Source of the DNA: Escherichia phage RB49
DNA length: 64,000 nt
Sequence record: NC_005066.1
Direction: 5' to 3' (one strand)
The translations under genes and the position numbers were made by a program. The notes beneath the pieces were generated by a model. It was not told the DNA's origin. It searched no databases and worked only from the letters and a program-made list of their open reading frames with translations. Positions 34,540-40,838 of this stretch are shown here, one piece after another; the stretch's first letter is position 1, and each line of letters opens with the position of its first letter.

Positions 34540-36783
34540 TTACAGCTTGCAAGATGAGCACTCGCTAGCGTCTTCCGTACCATCAGCACCATCACGCACG
34601 TTAGCGTAATACAGGGTTTTCAGACCGTAATATTGAGCAAACAGCATATCATCTAACACATCAGCAATATCGACTTTACCAGTCTTATAAGTGCTTGGAT
34701 CGTATGATGTATTGGAACTAATCGCCTGATCCACAAACTTCTGCATGATCGCTGCCAGTGTCAGATAAGGCTTGTTACCTTTCTTGATCAGTGTCCAAAG
34801 CAGGTCAATAACATCAGCATTATTCTCTACGTTCGGAATAACCTGATTAAATTGCCCTTCTTTCGATCCTTTAACCGATACAATCCCGCGAGGCGGTTCA
34901 ATACCATTTGTGCTGTTAGACACCTGAGAGGACGACTCACAAGGCATCAGCGCCGACAGTGTACTGTTACGAATGCCATATTTTTTCAGGTCTTTGCGCA
35001 GTTCTTCCCAATCCATCTCATACACCGGATCAACCAGTTCATCTACTGTCTTTTTGTACCAGTCGATAGGCAGTTCACCGCGTCCATAACGTGTTTCGTG
35101 CATCAGTTCGCAAGCACCCTTCTCTTTAGCCAGTTGCACACTAGCCTTAATCAGAGCATATTGCAAGCGTTCAAACGTTTTATGCGTAAACTCGTTAGCG
35201 TCTTCATATGTGAAGAAATTATCCGCTAGATATGACGCAAAGTTAGTCACACCAACACCCAGAGAGCGACGTTTTTTGGCTGTTAGAGCTTGTTCTACAG
35301 GATAATCCTGATAATCTAACAGGTTGTCCAGTGCACGCACCATAACCATAGCAATGCGTTCTACTTCTTCCATATTTTCGATATCGAAATTACCTAAAAC
35401 ATATGCTGCCAAAGTACATAGGCTAATTTCTGAATCATCACGACCCATCGGTTTAGTAGGCAGTGCAATTTCACAACACAGGTTAGATTGTTTAATCGGT
35501 GCTACATTACGAATAAACGCCCCGTGATTGTTCATGTTGTCTGTGAACGTTGGGTAGATTCGACCAGTGTTAAAACGTTCAATTGCCACCGCTAAAAACA
35601 GGTCTTCGGCTTTAACACGAGTTTTACGAACACTCGGATCTTTTTCCAGTTTTTCGTAAAGCTGGCGGAAACCTTCCTCATCTCGGAAGTATAGATCCCA
35701 CAACAAGCCACCCGCAACATCTGGACTAAACAGAGTAATGTAATCCCGTTTAAGGAATCGCTCTACCATCAGGTTATTAATCTGTACGCCGTAATCAAGA
35801 TGACGAATGCGGTTATCTTCCACCCCCTTATTGTTCTTTAACACAATCAGACTTTCAAACTCTAAATGCCACATTGGGTAATAGAGAGTCGCCGCCCCGC
35901 CACGAATACCGCCTTGTGAGCATGACTTAACGGCAGTCTGAAAATGTTTCCAGAATGGGATAACGCCAGTATGACGAACTTCACCATGCCCGATCTTAGA
36001 TCCTTCCGCGCGAATCATACCAGCGTTGATACCGATGCCAGCACGCTTGCTAATATACTTGATGATTGCATTTGCTGTTTCGTTGATGCCCTGCAATGAG
36101 TCATCACTTTCAATCACCACGCACGAACTAAATTGTCGTGTTGGAGTACGCACACCCGCCATAATCGGAGTAGGCAGAGAGATTTGCTTATTCGCAACAG
36201 CATTATAAAAATCAATCACATGTTCAAGTCTATTTTCTGTCTCTTCTTGATGTAAGCACATACCGATCAGCATATACGCAAATTGCGGTGTTTCGATGAT
36301 TTTCTTAGTGCTGCGATCCTGAACAAGATATTTCTCTTTTAACTGCATCGCACCAGCATAGGTCATTTTAAAATCAAGTTTATGGTCGATGAATTTCTCC
36401 AGATATTCCACTTCTTCACGGGAATACTTTTGCAGAATTTCGCGATCATATTTTCCGGTTGCAATATTACGCTCAATATGGCTGTAAAAATCAATCGGTT
36501 GGAATTGACCGTATACTGATTTGCGAAGCGCGAACATTGCAAGGTTACTTGCTACATATTGATAATCGGGCGTTTCTACCGTGATGTTATCTGCGGCGAC
36601 CTTAATCAATACTTTCTGGATATCATTGGTAGACATACCTTCTGTCAGAAGTGGTTCAACCATATCAAACAATTCATATGGATCAACGTTATGACCTTCG
36701 GCTGCCGCTTCCAGAATTTTCATTACTTTTTCTTTTTCAAACGGAACAGTCAGACCGGAAGACTTAACAACATTTTTAATCAT
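34540..36783 (-). CDS. nrdA: ribonucleotide reductase class Ia large subunit
   Basis: 747 aa; NLCCEIALP active-site motif; C-terminal Cys pair (CSSCKL). Confidence 0.9.
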   Translation of the reverse strand: MIKNVVKSSGLTVPFEKEKVMKILEAAAEGHNVDPYELFDMVEPLLTEGMSTNDIQKVLIKVAADNITVETPDYQYVASNLAMFALRKSVYGQFQPIDFYSHIERNIATGKYDREILQKYSREEVEYLEKFIDHKLDFKMTYAGAMQLKEKYLVQDRSTKKIIETPQFAYMLIGMCLHQEETENRLEHVIDFYNAVANKQISLPTPIMAGVRTPTRQFSSCVVIESDDSLQGINETANAIIKYISKRAGIGINAGMIRAEGSKIGHGEVRHTGVIPFWKHFQTAVKSCSQGGIRGGAATLYYPMWHLEFESLIVLKNNKGVEDNRIRHLDYGVQINNLMVERFLKRDYITLFSPDVAGGLLWDLYFRDEEGFRQLYEKLEKDPSVRKTRVKAEDLFLAVAIERFNTGRIYPTFTDNMNNHGAFIRNVAPIKQSNLCCEIALPTKPMGRDDSEISLCTLAAYVLGNFDIENMEEVERIAMVMVRALDNLLDYQDYPVEQALTAKKRRSLGVGVTNFASYLADNFFTYEDANEFTHKTFERLQYALIKASVQLAKEKGACELMHETRYGRGELPIDWYKKTVDELVDPVYEMDWEELRKDLKKYGIRNSTLSALMPCESSSQVSNSTNGIEPPRGIVSVKGSKEGQFNQVIPNVENNADVIDLLWTLIKKGNKPYLTLAAIMQKFVDQAISSNTSYDPSTYKTGKVDIADVLDDMLFAQYYGLKTLYYANVRDGADGTEDASECSSCKL

Positions 36784-36851
36784 ATTACCTCACTTCATAT
36801 TTTAGCAGGAACAAGTTTATCCTCCATATTGGGGGCTTTCGCCCCCTTTGT

Positions 36852-38084
36852 TTATACTGCCATTTGAGCGGTGATTGCTGGATGGCTTTGATAGTTGTGA
36901 ATTTTAAAATCTTTCGGAGTCTTTGTCAATACCTCATCTAAAGATTTAAATTCCGGCAACTCAATTGTTGGTTTATCAAACGGAACACGGCTTAACTGTT
37001 CCATAACTTGATCAAAATGGTTTTTGTAAATGTGAGTATCTCCACCAGAGAAAATCAGTTCTCCTACCTCAAGATCACACATTTTCGCTATGATGTGAGT
37101 TAACAGCGCATAGCTGGCGACGTTAAAGGGCAAGCCCAAAAAGCTGTCTACGCTTCGCTGAAACCACATACAAGACAGTTTACCTTCATTGACGTAGAAT
37201 TGTACGAACGGATGACATACACCCAACACAGCATTATGTGTTCCTTGTACGTTCCATGAGTCAATAATGATCCGGCGATCCGTTGGATTGTTTTTAATTT
37301 GTTCAATCACGTTTTGTAACTGGTCTTCCCAAATCTTCGGGCGATAGACATATTCTTCATCGTCTTTAGTGCTCGATGTGTCTACGTCCATACTAGCAAA
37401 GATCGTGGTATCTGGTGCTAAAATATCCCCACCCAGATAATCACTATCAAGCAGATAACCGAAATAACCATCATCTACCCATTCCTGGAATCCCCACAAG
37501 CAATATGCATCATTAACAAAATTAGATTGAGTCTTCCAGTGGTCTGCTACTAAGAATAGATTATACTCAGAATCAAACTCTTCATAACGCATACCACGCC
37601 AGATAGCACATAAACGGTCTTCTGTTTCATTGGTTGGCGTAAAGTCTTCTACCCACGGGTGTTTAAATGTATGTGTATATTTGCTCTTAACGCGCTTAAT
37701 TTTGATTTCACCGTGTGGATGAATCGGTTTGCGTCGCCATGCCATACCATACATATTACCGACATTATAACCATTGAATCGCAAAGGATTCTTTTCTTTC
37801 ATATCAAGACAGTTGCCGCGCCAAATATCAAAGGCTTCCTCGTCAAACTTACCGCGTGTAATTTCCTGTAAGCGACGGCGGTCAAGTGATCCCTCCATAA
37901 ACCATAGCAACTCGCCAATTACAGAGGCTGTAGCCATCTTTTTAGTGGTCAGTAAGGGGAAACCCTTGCTTAAATCAATTCGCATCTCTGCGCCGAATTT
38001 AGAGAGCGTACCTACCCCCGTGCGGTCTTCACGAGGCCAACCATTATCAAGAACATCACGCAATAGTTTCAAATATTCTTTCAT
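36852..38084 (-). CDS. td: thymidylate synthase with ~125-aa internal insertion
   Basis: Collinear with E. coli ThyA at both ends (RTGVGTLS..., DRRIIIDSWN, CHPFVQFYV..KLSC.W.QRS.D.FLGLPFN.ASYALLTH, GDTHIY, AITAQMAV); extra segment residues ~125-252. Confidence 0.9.
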   Translation of the reverse strand: MKEYLKLLRDVLDNGWPREDRTGVGTLSKFGAEMRIDLSKGFPLLTTKKMATASVIGELLWFMEGSLDRRRLQEITRGKFDEEAFDIWRGNCLDMKEKNPLRFNGYNVGNMYGMAWRRKPIHPHGEIKIKRVKSKYTHTFKHPWVEDFTPTNETEDRLCAIWRGMRYEEFDSEYNLFLVADHWKTQSNFVNDAYCLWGFQEWVDDGYFGYLLDSDYLGGDILAPDTTIFASMDVDTSSTKDDEEYVYRPKIWEDQLQNVIEQIKNNPTDRRIIIDSWNVQGTHNAVLGVCHPFVQFYVNEGKLSCMWFQRSVDSFLGLPFNVASYALLTHIIAKMCDLEVGELIFSGGDTHIYKNHFDQVMEQLSRVPFDKPTIELPEFKSLDEVLTKTPKDFKIHNYQSHPAITAQMAV

Positions 38085-38325
38085 CCCACATCACCTTTTT
38101 CTTGTTGATTGCTTTCTTACGCAGTTTTGCTACTGTCTCGTCAATATCGATAAAGACAACGCCACGGTCGAATACAGTAGCAGGTCTTGAAATGTCGCTA
38201 TTTTCCTGTACTGGAAGCCATGATGCGCTCGCTTCATCATAGAGATATTGTAAACCATAATAATCTACGGCTACTGCGTAGTTTTCACTGGTAGCCGTCC
38301 ATAATTGAATAATACCGACTTTCAT
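38056..38325 (-). CDS. small protein (~90 aa) between frd and td
   Basis: Track ORF (begins at GTG); start uncertain. Confidence 0.4.
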   Translation of the reverse strand: MKVGIIQLWTATSENYAVAVDYYGLQYLYDEASASWLPVQENSDISRPATVFDRGVVFIDIDETVAKLRKKAINKKKVMWDERIFETIA

Positions 38326-38418
38326 TATTGTTCCCGTCCGCAATGTAAGCACCGACTACCAGCAAACATCAAAGATTCACCACAATGTTTGCACTCATAA
38401 TCTGTAAGAATTTTCATG

Positions 38419-38988
38419 TTACGCCTTCTTACGTTCTAAGATTTGTTCGCTGATCAGGTAATCATCAAGGAAGTAATTATGTTCTTCTTTTGTTGCAAAG
38501 TCAAAATATAATTCCTGAATCATTTCCTTAGAAATACCAACATCATATTCAAATGGATCGTTGATTCCTGAACGTTGAACATACGTTAACACAATACGGT
38601 CCGCAAAGTCAACTGCTTTTTCAATCAGGGAAGGTCCACCAATAACACTTACCAAACCTTGCGTTTTCTCCAGGACTTTTAACAGATCCTTTAATTCAAT
38701 TCCAGTATACACATTAGGCTGGTCGCCGTTTTTGGCTTTCGGTGTCGGCTTGCTGGCATCGGTACTAATAACCACATTAAGACGACCTTCCAGTGCTTTA
38801 GGCAGACTTTCAAAGGTATTACGTCCCATTACAACCGCCGCAAGTTCAACATCTCCCATAGTGCGCATTTTAAAGTTTTCCATGTCCTTTTTGATTGGAC
38901 GACCCCACGGTAAACCGCCTTTAAAACCAAAAGCCCAATTTTCATCTGACATTTTAGTGTCACCAATCGCAAATACACATTGAATCAT
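38419..38988 (-). CDS. frd: dihydrofolate reductase
   Basis: GGLPWG motif, size 189 aa, adjacent to td. Confidence 0.85.
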   Translation of the reverse strand: MIQCVFAIGDTKMSDENWAFGFKGGLPWGRPIKKDMENFKMRTMGDVELAAVVMGRNTFESLPKALEGRLNVVISTDASKPTPKAKNGDQPNVYTGIELKDLLKVLEKTQGLVSVIGGPSLIEKAVDFADRIVLTYVQRSGINDPFEYDVGISKEMIQELYFDFATKEEHNYFLDDYLISEQILERKKA

Positions 38989-39333: not shown

Positions 39334-39400
39334 AATATAGTCCTCACTTTGATTCGATGTTTGTATTATACACTGTTGCGTTACGCTGTCAACTCTTTTT
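39334..39400 (-). promoter_or_regulatory. PeSL-like early promoter cassette
   Basis: agtcctcac...cgatgtttgtattatacac...gctgtcaactcttttt. Confidence 0.6.
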
Positions 39401-40838
39401 CAAAAGATTTTACGATATACATGATAGTGCTCAATTCAGACGGCGCTACTGTCTCTGTCCAACCATCCGGCATATCTTCTTTCGAGATATAGGAAGTTTT
39501 ACCTTTCATCGCTTCCTTGATCTTGTTCTCTAAGTCTAAGATCTTTTGACCGTCTTGTAAAGTCAGTTCATAAAAGATCTCGTGGTCGAATTTAGAAACG
39601 TTAGATTGCTGTTTCATTCTTTCTTGTGTTGTTTTATTTGTTATACCAAATTTAATTCCCACCAAGAAAGAATCTTTAATTATTTTCTGTATATACAATA
39701 CGCCTTTTTTGGATGGTCTAAATCCATAATGTGCACAATTCGGACATCCTTTACCAGATAAAAAATTTTGTGCGGATGTTGTATATTCTCCACAATTAGA
39801 ACACAACAATTTTAGATTTTTTACTTTTCCTCCTTTATAACCAGAATCAAAGCATACAAATGTTATATTATCACGGTCTTTAGATTCTTTAATAATATCG
39901 AGCATGGCTTCTTCTTCGGTTTTTAATCCAACCCCAGCACATTTAGCACACCCGTTTCTTCCATTTTTAATAGAATTTAATGATGTTGTATACTCACCGT
40001 GTCGGTGACAACTAACTACCAAATTTTTTGTGTTTATATTTTTATAGCCATCAATAAAACCAACAACAGTTAAACCGAGTTGATCTGCACACTCTTTTGC
40101 AAAATTAATAGCGTCTTCTTCTGAAAATGTTCTCTTAGACACTGCTTTATTTTTACTACATATAGGACAGCCACGACCCAACCTACAGAAATTGTAATAA
40201 CTGGTTTTAAATTCACCATGAATAAAACATTCAACAATTAAATTTCTCTCATTGTTTTTTACATACCCACCTTCAAATCCGACAACTACACAATTTCCTA
40301 GTATATTTGCACGTTCGACCGCTTCTAGTGTAACAATGTTTATGTCATATTTTGGTGTTCCTTTGCATTTAGGACAACCACGCCCTTGCATATATTTGTT
40401 ATGCGAAGTTTTATATTCTCCATGATGTTTACAGTTCACTATAAGATTTCTGTATGCGCTTGTTTTATATCCACCGTCGAATCCTATAATATCTTCGGTT
40501 TCTCTTTTCTGAGACTCCATCAAAACATCGGCAAGTGCTTTATTAGTTGAGTTTCTTCTGATTTCAGCAACTCTATTGGTTGCACATTTTTTACAGCCAT
40601 AGTTTTTTTCGTAATTTCCGATATTTGACGTGAAGATGTTTTTACATTTGCATAATATACATGCTTTTGTTTTAACAGAATTCCATTCACCAATAAAGCC
40701 AAGATATATATGTTTTTTGGATAATGATATTTTAATAAATCTTTTCTCATATTCCATAGGAGAAATAGCACTAGATGTTTTTCCAGTCCATTGAATGTCT
40801 TTAGCATATCTAAGAATTGTCATTGATTTAATTTTCAT
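39381..40838 (-). CDS. large protein with five tandem Zn-ribbon modules and C-terminal GIY-YIG/T5orf172-like segment
   Basis: Repeats C-x2-[HC]GE[YF]xTS...G.GCPxC x5, each followed by GF.GGY; C-terminal GVLYIQKII...GIKFGITNKTTQER. Confidence 0.7.
   Translation of the reverse strand: MKIKSMTILRYAKDIQWTGKTSSAISPMEYEKRFIKISLSKKHIYLGFIGEWNSVKTKACILCKCKNIFTSNIGNYEKNYGCKKCATNRVAEIRRNSTNKALADVLMESQKRETEDIIGFDGGYKTSAYRNLIVNCKHHGEYKTSHNKYMQGRGCPKCKGTPKYDINIVTLEAVERANILGNCVVVGFEGGYVKNNERNLIVECFIHGEFKTSYYNFCRLGRGCPICSKNKAVSKRTFSEEDAINFAKECADQLGLTVVGFIDGYKNINTKNLVVSCHRHGEYTTSLNSIKNGRNGCAKCAGVGLKTEEEAMLDIIKESKDRDNITFVCFDSGYKGGKVKNLKLLCSNCGEYTTSAQNFLSGKGCPNCAHYGFRPSKKGVLYIQKIIKDSFLVGIKFGITNKTTQERMKQQSNVSKFDHEIFYELTLQDGQKILDLENKIKEAMKGKTSYISKEDMPDGWTETVAPSELSTIMYIVKSFEKELTA

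What the first reader, a model, noticed from the sequence alone, without database searches (positions are those of the whole stretch)
37329..37712. Thymidylate synthase with a ~125-aa in-frame insertion
The td product (410 aa) aligns with E. coli ThyA across the catalytic core, but between the conserved WRR-P-HG and DQLQNVIEQIK segments it carries about 125 extra residues (IKIKRVKSKYTHTFKHPWVEDF...YVYRPKIWE) with no similarity to ThyA. It is in frame and lacks intein hallmarks (no Cys/Ser start with terminal HN). It may be an inserted domain for interaction within the dNTP-synthesis complex or for regulation.
Basis: partly seen in the sequence, partly recalled or inferred. Interest (0 to 1): 0.5.

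Follow-up and report, generated by a model that had tools for sequence, protein, structure and literature searches.

The report
Decayed homing-endonuclease domain inside thymidylate synthase
The extra ~125 residues in this RB49-like phage's thymidylate synthase are real and are the shrunken, probably inactive remnant of a homing-endonuclease domain that sits, unspliced and in frame, in a surface hairpin of the enzyme, one case of an apparently undescribed habit of such domains lodging in phage thymidylate synthases.

Summary
The window comes from a Krischvirus (RB49-like T4-type phage). Its td gene (36852-38084, minus strand, 410 aa) is a complete ThyA, interrupted by one contiguous in-frame block, aa 125-252.

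The block is neither an intron nor an intein. It folds as a compact domain (AlphaFold pLDDT >90 over about 100 residues). It is homologous (HHalign 98.9%, E 3e-17) to the atypical HNH-like module of free-standing phage homing-endonuclease genes, the 'IPA-HNH' type of Barth et al. 2023.

Many other phage thymidylate synthases carry a full-length version (about 230-280 aa) at the same hairpin, and some at a second site. One metagenomic phage pair with 91% identical cores differs only by presence or absence of the insert.

The Krischvirus copy is truncated at both ends. It has lost 6 of the 9 residues invariant in the free-standing family, including all three cysteines and the Lys of DKD, and it is strongly acidic (net -12).

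It evolves under relaxed but real purifying selection (dN/dS about 0.2-0.3, against about 0.02 for the enzyme core).

Best reading: a fixed, decayed passenger domain left by a splicing-independent endonuclease insertion. A co-opted interaction role is not excluded.

The parts
36852..38084 (-). td gene (thymidylate synthase, 410 aa plus stop), between frd (38419..38988, -) and nrdA (34540..36783, -)
   Evidence: ORF list. Pfam PF00303 E=1e-84. NCBIfam thymidylate synthase models. 99.8% identical to annotated td of Krischvirus phages.
37713..38084 (-). ThyA N-terminal segment, aa 1-124 (through WRRKPIHPH), up to the hairpin of the small domain
   Evidence: Aligns to E. coli ThyA residues 1 to about 104. 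dN/dS 0.00-0.07 among Krischvirus phages.
37329..37712 (-). In-frame insert, aa 125-252 (GEIKIK...YVYRPKIW): truncated homing-endonuclease-type (IPA-HNH-like) module
   Evidence: Absent from E. coli ThyA. tblastn E=2e-12 to the same position of the 517-aa TS of jumbo phages. HHalign 98.9%, E=2.8e-17 to free-standing modules. dN/dS 0.15-0.5.
37395..37694 (-). Confidently folded core of the insert (Td aa 131-230)
   Evidence: AlphaFold2 of the isolated insert with a 78-sequence alignment: mean pLDDT 84.5, pTM 0.78. The 10-residue blocks covering model residues 11-110 average 81-98, and all but one exceed 90.
37473..37628 (-). Helical half of the module (Td aa 153-204; W162...W183...F189..D192...WGFQEWVD)
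   Evidence: Helices H33-50, H61-73 and H79-84 of the model. This half alone is repeated, in four matched stretches, downstream of a GIY-YIG nuclease domain in P0139.
37365..37457 (-). Degenerate beta-beta-alpha (HNH-like) half (Td aa 210-240; YLLDSDYLGGDILAPDTTIFASMDVD)
   Evidence: Strands E90-93 and E108-111 and helix H117-120 of the model. It corresponds to the family motif LDKD...YSPxTCxF...N. K214 is S, Y222 is L, S223 is A, C227 is T and N235 is D. Best PDB fold match is the HNH enzyme PacI, at weak Z.
37560..37571 (-). Four codons (SEYN, aa 172-175) present in the window, SSG23 and UPWr_E1 but deleted in Phi1, JSE, JK32 and G2248
   Evidence: Protein alignment of seven Krischvirus td genes; 406-aa versus 410-aa variants.
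36855..37328 (-). ThyA C-terminal segment, aa 253-410 (EDQLQ... to the C-terminus) with the catalytic Cys-His, RSxD, N and DxHxY motifs
   Evidence: Aligns to E. coli ThyA 110-264. Catalytic residues are invariant in alignment A1. dN/dS 0.00-0.12 when the recombinant JSE is excluded.

Best explanation
The block is a domain insertion that stays in the mature enzyme. An ancestor of the Krischvirus td gene, or of a wider T4-like clade, received an in-frame copy of a homing-endonuclease module of the atypical-HNH ('IPA-HNH') type. It landed at the tip of a surface beta-hairpin of the ThyA small domain, equivalent to E. coli residues about 105-108. The inserted domain's N- and C-termini lie together, so the enzyme folds around it and no RNA or protein splicing is needed. 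Full-length versions still exist at the same site in many other phage thymidylate synthases. They have an N-terminal beta domain, the HNH-like core and a C-terminal small domain. They show presence/absence polymorphism, as expected of a mobile or recently mobile element. In the Krischvirus lineage the element became fixed and then decayed. Both flanking sub-domains were deleted. All three conserved cysteines, the Lys of the DKD motif and the terminal Asn were replaced, and the surface became acidic. What remains is a roughly 100-residue folded stub that most likely neither cuts nor binds DNA. It is kept under moderate purifying selection because it must keep folding so as not to damage an essential enzyme, and because a precise excision restoring a working hairpin is improbable. 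Shown here: the contiguity of the insert, its homology, its independent fold, the intact catalytic residues, the residue losses and the selection pattern. Inferred: the direction of events, the loss of nuclease and DNA-binding activity, and the lack of any new function.
For: (1) One contiguous in-frame block interrupts an otherwise complete ThyA with all catalytic residues.
(2) Homology to homing-endonuclease modules. The short T4-like inserts match free-standing modules at HHalign 98.9%, E=2.8e-17. The long TS insert hits PHROG 'HNH endonuclease' families at 4e-32, 7e-25 and 9e-21. It also hits 1428 phage records, mostly small genes annotated as HNH or homing endonuclease, AP2 or DNA-binding protein. 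A profile of the module finds 2552 cluster representatives, and 98 of the top 145 are not TS. An ICP1 gene next to the DNA polymerase, with the architecture Barth et al. describe for IPA-HNH genes, matches the profile.
(3) The window insert aligns to the middle of the longer inserts at the same site.
(5) Decay: 6 of the 9 residues invariant in free-standing members are replaced, together with all three cysteines. The DKD motif is not conserved among the short forms. Net charge is -12, against a median of +1 to +2 in relatives. There is a 4-codon indel within the genus.
(6) Selection: insert dN/dS is 0.15-0.5, significantly below 1 (Fisher p 5e-5 to 0.03). The ratio of non-synonymous to synonymous changes is higher than in the core in all four pairs tested, and significantly so in three (p 1e-4 to 0.014; 0.13 in the fourth).
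(7) Mobility of the family: P0027 (insert) and P0059 (no insert) have 91% identical cores in syntenic phage contigs, where 850 nt replace 92 nt. A second, independent insertion site exists in other TS.
(8) There is no Rfam intron, no GC anomaly and no other copy of the module in the window.
Confidence: 0.65

Rival explanations
1. Co-opted functional domain. The endonuclease-derived stub has been recruited for a new role in Td. It might serve as an acidic protein-protein interaction surface in the phage dNTP-synthesising or replication complex, or as a regulatory or stabilising module.
For: Purifying selection acts on the insert (dN/dS 0.15-0.5, below 1 with p 5e-5 to 0.03). The insert is retained, with invariant motifs, in at least four divergent T4-like lineages. 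There is a marked shift to net charge -11/-12 in Krischvirus and -4 to -7 in most other T4-like short forms (one is 0), against about +1 in free-standing modules. The fold is confidently predicted as independent. From established knowledge, T4 Td is part of a dNTP synthetase complex, and its own small-domain inserts were proposed as contact sites.
Against: Constraint is 5-10 fold weaker than on the enzyme core. There is an indel polymorphism within the genus. Independent reductions of different extent occurred in other lineages: P0009, and P0012/P0016 derived from a jumbo-phage-like TS. These look like decay rather than design. No partner or activity is known, and selection for foldability alone explains dN/dS below 1.
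Confidence: 0.25
2. Still-active embedded homing endonuclease. The Krischvirus Td itself cleaves insert-less td alleles and drives its own spread.
For: The insert is homologous to a homing-endonuclease family. The fold resembles the HNH enzyme PacI. A recombinant patch in JSE and P0004 td begins just downstream of the insert, as a co-conversion tract would.
Against: K of DKD, Y222, C227, N235, R168 and all three cysteines are replaced. The N-terminal beta domain and the C-terminal DNA-binding-like domain are deleted. The module is strongly acidic. The insert is fixed in all Krischvirus records, so no empty target exists within the genus.
Confidence: 0.03
3. Removed intervening sequence. The block is an unrecognised intron, intein or bypassed segment and is absent from the mature enzyme.
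For: T4 td carries a group I intron (established knowledge), and phage nucleotide-metabolism genes are hot spots for intervening sequences.
Against: No Rfam family matches at E<=1 on either strand. The frame stays open and synonymous changes exceed non-synonymous ones per site. The insert does not start with Cys/Ser/Thr or end with His-Asn followed by a nucleophile, and Pfam finds no Hint or intein domain. The segment is predicted to be a well-folded domain homologous to real protein domains.
Confidence: 0.02
4. Reverse direction. The domain arose as a lineage-specific elaboration of the ThyA small domain and was later captured by free-standing nuclease genes.
For: TS-embedded copies are numerous: 47 of the top 145 representatives.
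Against: The module is far more widespread and diverse outside TS (2552 representatives and 1428 phage records). It occurs as tandem repeats and with GIY-YIG, AP2 or NUMOD-like domains. It occupies two different sites in TS. It is absent from a TS 91% identical to an insert-bearing one.
Confidence: 0.03

Closest known systems
IPA-HNH homing-endonuclease genes (ICP1 gp59, gp115-116, gp209; Barth et al. 2023, PMC10448857)
   Same: The module is homologous. The TS-insert profile matches the ICP1 gene next to the DNA polymerase and hundreds of small phage genes with N-terminal atypical HNH plus AP2 or NUMOD-like domains. As described in that paper, the domain escapes the Pfam HNH models.
   Different: Those are free-standing, variably present genes with a C-terminal AP2 DNA-binding domain. 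The window copy is fused in frame inside an enzyme, lacks any DNA-binding domain, has lost most family-invariant residues and is fixed in its genus. The paper does not mention thymidylate synthase.
ShiLan domain: non-spliced insertion in an actinophage DNA methylase with a hidden HNH endonuclease (Arsenault et al. 2025, PMC11855218)
   Same: Both are insertion elements in a phage enzyme gene that read through in frame, have no intein or intron features, and are thought to be tolerated as an extra loop or domain.
   Different: In ShiLan the HNH is encoded in a different reading frame and the in-frame read-through is a structureless loop. Here the endonuclease-like module is itself in frame and part of the host protein. 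No alternative-frame ORF spans the insert.
Inteins carrying HNH or LAGLIDADG endonuclease domains, and mini-inteins
   Same: All are in-frame selfish insertions in conserved nucleotide-metabolism enzymes. The endonuclease part decays after fixation.
   Different: There is no Hint splicing domain and there are no splice-junction residues, so the insert must remain in the mature protein.
Lineage-specific small-domain inserts of ThyA (Lactobacillus casei 50-aa insert; T4 Td inserts; recalled from the structural literature, not tested here)
   Same: The same variable region of the enzyme tolerates extra residues. T4-type short expansions are also present in this Td.
   Different: Those inserts are 8-50 aa of extra loop or helix with no known mobile origin. 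The window insert is a 128-aa autonomous domain at a different point (E. coli ~105-108) and has homing-endonuclease ancestry. A second group of TS (Enterococcus phage A2 and others) carries the module near E. coli residues ~84-89.
Domesticated homing-endonuclease domains (CapR of PLE satellites, CasPR anti-CRISPRs, plant AP2 factors)
   Same: All are homing-endonuclease-derived domains that survive after loss of nuclease function.
   Different: Those retain DNA binding and act as regulators. No DNA-binding signature remains here.
PacI restriction endonuclease (PDB 3m7k)

Membership tests
Thymidylate synthase ThyA (PF00303) | Profile match above the curated threshold over the whole fold | tested here: met
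   Pfam E=1e-84, 284 bits against a cut-off of 24.3, in two stretches. TIGR03284 scores 283 bits against a cut-off of 108. PDB ThyA chains match at E about 1e-68.
Thymidylate synthase ThyA (PF00303) | Catalytic and substrate-binding residues (E. coli R21, E58, Y94, R126/R127, C146-H147, R166-S167-D169, N177, H207-Y209) | tested here: met
   All lie in invariant columns of alignment A1: R21, E58, Y112, R270, C290, H291, R310, S311, D313, N321, H351 and Y353 in window numbering. Core dN/dS is about 0.02.
IPA-HNH homing endonucleases | Homologous atypical HNH-like module | tested here: met
   HHalign of short inserts against free-standing modules gives 98.9%, E=2.8e-17. The profile hits the ICP1 gene. 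PHROG HNH families match the long form at 4e-32. A direct PHROG scan of the window insert alone was only E=0.59.
IPA-HNH homing endonucleases | C-terminal AP2 (or other) DNA-binding domain | tested here: not met
   There is no AP2, NUMOD or HTH match in Td. The region equivalent to the C-terminal small domain of the long inserts is deleted.
IPA-HNH homing endonucleases | Family-invariant residues (W, R, W, D-K-D, Y, C, N; plus two further Cys) | tested here: not met
   The window has W, E, W, D-S-D, L, T, D. Cys169 is E, Cys180 is A and Cys227 is T.
IPA-HNH homing endonucleases | Free-standing gene, variably present among close relatives | tested here: not met
   The module is embedded in td and present in the 57 Krischvirus records that match it at >=90% identity. 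Presence/absence is seen only for long forms in another phage lineage.
IPA-HNH homing endonucleases | Site-specific DNA cleavage and homing | not testable with these tools
   This needs enzyme assays and mixed infections.
HNH / beta-beta-alpha-metal nuclease superfamily | Beta-beta-alpha-metal fold | tested here: inconclusive
Intein | Hint domain; N-terminal Cys/Ser/Thr; C-terminal His-Asn followed by Cys/Ser/Thr | tested here: not met
   The insert starts G-E-I and ends K-I-W followed by E-D. Pfam gives no Hint or intein hit at E<=1.
Group I intron (as in T4 td) | Ribozyme core detectable by covariance model; interruption of the reading frame | tested here: not met
   There is no Rfam match at E<=1 in 36700-38500 on either strand. 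The ORF is continuous with codon-level purifying selection.
ShiLan-type insertion (out-of-frame hidden HNH) | Endonuclease ORF in an alternative frame spanning the insert | tested here: not met
   Only 41-70 aa ORFs overlap 37329-37712 in other frames, and none spans it.

The most novel reading that the evidence does not exclude
Phage thymidylate synthases host a previously unrecognised class of splicing-independent, in-frame homing elements. The full-length insert (beta domain, atypical HNH and a small C-terminal domain) would be expressed as part of the enzyme, and the chimeric TS-endonuclease would itself cut insert-less td alleles at the hairpin-coding site and spread by gene conversion. 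The Krischvirus insert would be the decayed, fixed end state of that life cycle. It may now be retained because its acidic surface has been put to use by the enzyme.
Probability: 0.35. Interest if true: 0.8.

Novelty: new variant of a known kind. Interest (0 to 1): 0.62.

Why it matters
Homing endonucleases are thought to survive inside essential genes only if an intron or intein removes them, or if they sit between genes. The data here suggest a third arrangement: the endonuclease module is inserted at a permissive surface hairpin and simply stays in the enzyme.

If the full-length versions are active, this is a new kind of selfish-element architecture. It would also be a natural example of tolerated domain insertion in a classic drug-target enzyme.

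For the RB49-like phages, which are widely used model and therapy phages, it explains a long-annotated but unexplained 410-aa 'td' product. It also gives a clean system for asking what happens to a selfish domain after fixation: pure decay, or co-option.

It warns annotators too. A Vibrio phage TS-like gene carrying the insert is deposited as 'HNH endonuclease'.

Tried and rejected
- Pfam and NCBIfam scans of the insert or of long inserts found no domain apart from ThyA.
- A PHROG scan of the window insert alone gave only E=0.59. The link needed the longer relatives and profile methods.
- The word-indexed protein search with the insert alignment returned only 8 proteins, all TS. The exhaustive representative search was needed.
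- A profile search of PDB sequences with the module found nothing below E=0.2.
- The afdb50 fold library was unavailable.
- Intron reading: no Rfam hit and no GC anomaly. Rejected.
- Intein reading: no junction residues and no Hint domain. Rejected.
- ShiLan-like hidden ORF: none present.
- Literature: papers on T4 mobile elements, Felix O1, actinophage inteins, jumbo phages and five T4-like genomes do not describe the td insert. The 2002 RB49 genome paper is not held.
- The gene splitting nrdA in locus L015 was tested as a possible relative of the module. It is an ordinary HNH gene, not this family.
- The apparent outlier P0005 in the module-versus-core comparison is a truncated protein and was ignored.
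- A Pfam scan of all 145 representatives at once exceeded the size limit. It was replaced by local phmmer classification and a 10-protein scan.

Full report
**What is there.** The window is from a Krischvirus, an RB49-like T4-type coliphage. The 410-aa product of ORF 36852..38084 (minus strand) is 99.8% identical to the annotated thymidylate synthase of phages FL38, TB34 and SAP, and 99.5% identical to that of RB49. It lies between frd (38419..38988) and nrdA (34540..36783), as in T4.

Pfam matches ThyA at E=1e-84, but in two stretches. E. coli ThyA structures align only to aa 1-82 and 254-410. A multiple alignment places one contiguous block between WRRKPIHPHG and WEDQLQ, where E. coli has just TPDGRHI.

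All catalytic and substrate-binding residues of ThyA sit in invariant alignment columns. The enzyme part looks fully functional, and it is under very strong purifying selection (dN/dS 0.00-0.08 among seven Krischvirus td genes, leaving aside the recombinant JSE C-terminal half).

**Not an intron, intein or hidden ORF.** No Rfam family matches either strand of 36700-38500, even at E<=1. GC content of the insert (0.38-0.42) is like its flanks. The frame is open, and synonymous changes exceed non-synonymous ones per site. The block starts G-E-I and ends K-I-W-E, without intein junction residues or any Hint domain. No alternative-frame ORF spans it.

**What the insert is related to.** A tblastn search with the insert alone finds all Krischvirus phages. 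It also finds, at 29-32% identity (E=2e-12), the same position of the 517-aa thymidylate synthases of the jumbo phages UE-S1 and KP13-7. A third match is a 477-aa TS-like protein of Vibrio phage D69, deposited as 'HNH endonuclease'.

The alignment shows that the window insert is the middle part of these longer inserts. It lacks about 58 N-terminal and about 45 C-terminal residues.

The long insert has no Pfam match. It hits PHROG families annotated as HNH endonuclease at 4e-32, 7e-25 and 9e-21. It also hits 1428 phage records, mostly small free-standing genes annotated as HNH or homing endonuclease, AP2-domain protein or DNA-binding protein. Examples examined (Dickeya phage Kamild, Bacillus phage DIGNKC, Vibrio phage 1.161.O) share one architecture: an N-terminal beta module, the central module (Y..W..M..RCY...VC.RW..F.NF..D...LDKD...YSP.TC.F...N), and then an AP2 or I-HmuI NUMOD-like DNA-binding domain.

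An exhaustive profile search of 1.84 billion cluster representatives finds 2552 members (111 at E<=1e-10). Of the top 145, 47 are thymidylate synthases carrying the module and 98 are not. One of the latter, P0139, is a GIY-YIG nuclease followed by repeated copies of the helical half of the module (four matched stretches).

The short T4-like inserts match the free-standing modules directly in a profile-profile comparison: HHalign probability 98.9%, E=2.8e-17, 99 columns.

Barth et al. 2023 described this kind of gene in Vibrio phage ICP1 as 'IPA-HNH' homing endonuclease genes. These have an HNH-related domain too divergent for the Pfam profile, plus a C-terminal AP2 domain. The ICP1 gene just downstream of the DNA polymerase has that architecture and matches my insert profile. 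That it is their gp59 is my inference. The paper does not mention thymidylate synthase, and I found no paper that describes the td insert.

**Structure.** AlphaFold2 on the isolated window insert, with a 78-sequence alignment, gives mean pLDDT 84.5 and pTM 0.78, and about 100 residues score above 90. The model has a helical half followed by two short strands and a helix. The long insert of P0014 gives pLDDT 92.5 and pTM 0.87. It has an extra N-terminal beta domain and a C-terminal beta/alpha domain.

Foldseek against predicted viral structures returns insert-bearing thymidylate synthases and proteins named homing endonuclease. There is no sequence-level PDB relative.

**The Krischvirus copy is decayed.** Nine positions are invariant in the free-standing family: W, R, W, D, K, D, Y, C and N. 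At these positions the window has W, E, W, D, S, D, L, T and D, and all three conserved cysteines are replaced. What is kept is mainly hydrophobic core, while polar, probably functional residues are lost.

Among the T4-like short forms the DKD motif is not conserved at all: DSD, SCD, SCK, TQK and SLV. The central module has net charge -11 and the whole insert -12. Medians are +1 in free-standing modules and +2 in long TS inserts. This argues against nucleic-acid binding.

Within the genus there is a four-codon indel, giving 406-aa and 410-aa forms. Pairwise dN/dS of the insert is 0.15-0.5 in 20 of 21 pairs, with a median near 0.23. The remaining pair, which has only 1.5 synonymous differences, gives 1.19. 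The ratio is significantly below 1 (Fisher p 5e-5 to 0.03). The ratio of non-synonymous to synonymous changes exceeds that of the core in all four pairs tested, significantly in three (p 1e-4 to 0.014; 0.13 in the fourth).

Across T4-like metagenomic relatives with the same frd-td-nrdA synteny, the cores are 59-73% identical and the inserts 32-52%. A conserved skeleton remains: W...W...F..DAYCLWGFQEWVD...GDI[LI]APDT[TA][IV]F. Module similarity to the window follows core similarity, so the short insert has been inherited vertically in this clade.

**The family behaves like a mobile element.** In most insert-bearing synthases the break in the ThyA alignment falls at E. coli residues about 105-108. 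This holds although their cores are only 40-60% identical to each other. A smaller group has the module at a second site, near E. coli residues 84-89: Enterococcus phage A2 (491 aa), P0143, P0209, P0210 and P0243. That implies independent insertion.

Most tellingly, P0027 (552 aa, with insert) and P0059 (299 aa, without) have cores 91% identical. They lie in syntenic phage contigs (238/237-aa gene, 98-aa gene, DHFR, TS). At the DNA level the flanks align at 77% and 81% identity, while 850 nt in one replace 92 nt in the other.

Short forms arose more than once. P0012 and P0016 (417-418 aa) have a jumbo-phage-like core and a different pattern of deletions from the Krischvirus form.

**Most likely mechanism.** A homing-endonuclease module entered td in frame at the tip of a surface hairpin of the small domain. 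Because the inserted domain's ends lie together, the enzyme tolerates it without splicing.

Full-length copies keep nearly all family-invariant residues. Whether they still cut DNA is unknown.

In the Krischvirus clade the element was fixed, lost its flanking domains and its putative catalytic and zinc-binding residues, and became an acidic stub of about 100 residues. The stub must still fold because it is part of an essential enzyme, which explains dN/dS of about 0.2-0.3.

I put 0.65 on this 'fixed, decayed passenger domain' reading. A few percent each go to residual nuclease activity, removal by splicing, and the reverse evolutionary direction.

**Limits.**
- The HNH fold assignment is weak.
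- No family member has been assayed.
- The structure was predicted for the isolated insert only, so its packing on the enzyme is inferred from the known exposed position of the E. coli 100-108 hairpin. That position is recalled, not tested here.
- dN/dS comes from pairwise counts of few substitutions in recombining phages.
- Metagenomic proteins are unverified.
- The presence/absence pair could reflect ordinary recombination rather than homing.

Noticed in passing
window 39381..40838 (- strand): A 485-aa ORF lies two genes upstream of td. It has repeated Cys-rich units matching the CapR homology domain (PF21817, E=9e-19), DUF723 and a treble-clef zinc finger. This is the DNA-binding domain type of T5orf172 homing endonucleases, and the ORF is listed as RB49ORF239c (DUF723) in Nolan et al. 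2006. It is probably a homing-endonuclease gene or a derivative sitting next to the nucleotide-metabolism cluster.
   Followed up: partly
L010 (phage JSE td, locus 541-1764), also protein P0004; equivalent to window ~37030..37320: The td C-terminal half of JSE and P0004 is a recombinant patch. From just after the insert (QKVIDMIKNDPYSRR...) to about CGDCHIY it is highly divergent (C-core dS 0.75-1.0, against 0.03-0.28 in other pairs), and the sequence then returns to near identity. This shows mosaic exchange between td alleles that starts at the insert boundary.
   Followed up: partly
L015 4689..7876: In a T4-like metagenomic phage with a short-insert td, nrdA is split into two ORFs by a 237-aa canonical HNH gene (HHVIPR...NIVVLTPEEH), as in Aeromonas phage Aeh1 mobE. 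It is not related to the td insert module.
   Followed up: partly
L001 3632..5065 (Vibrio phage D69): A 477-aa protein deposited as 'HNH endonuclease' is really a TS-like protein carrying the insert. Its TS motifs are unusually divergent (LGSFYNIWSY and SLKDAHTY, in place of LGLPFNIASY and GGDTHIY), so it may be a neofunctionalised TS paralogue. Its insert is 69% identical to that of P0129, although their cores are only 43% identical.
   Followed up: no
L004 2120..3595 (Enterococcus phage vB_EfaM_A2): This 491-aa thymidylate synthase of a Gram-positive herellevirus carries the same module plus a helix-turn-helix-like segment. The insertion is at a different point of the small domain, before LGKAYGFQ and near E. 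coli residues 84-89. That is roughly where, from my recollection of the structural literature (not checked here), Lactobacillus casei TS has its 50-aa insert.
   Followed up: partly
proteins P0169, P0174, P0207, P0209: Some insert-bearing thymidylate synthases have a further gap of about 20-40 aa in the ThyA alignment at E. coli residues ~155-157. This suggests a second, unrelated insertion close to the active-site region.
   Followed up: no
protein P0139 (700 aa): This protein has a GIY-YIG nuclease domain followed by repeated copies of only the helical half of the module (four stretches matched by the profile). It suggests that this half is a reusable DNA-binding unit, separable from the beta-beta-alpha half.
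   Followed up: partly
window 38056..38352 (- strand): A 98-aa ORF overlaps the start of td by about 29 nt. It is annotated as a hypothetical protein in all relatives and has no Pfam match. Some relatives (SSG23) also have an extra 100-aa ORF between td and nrdA.
   Followed up: no
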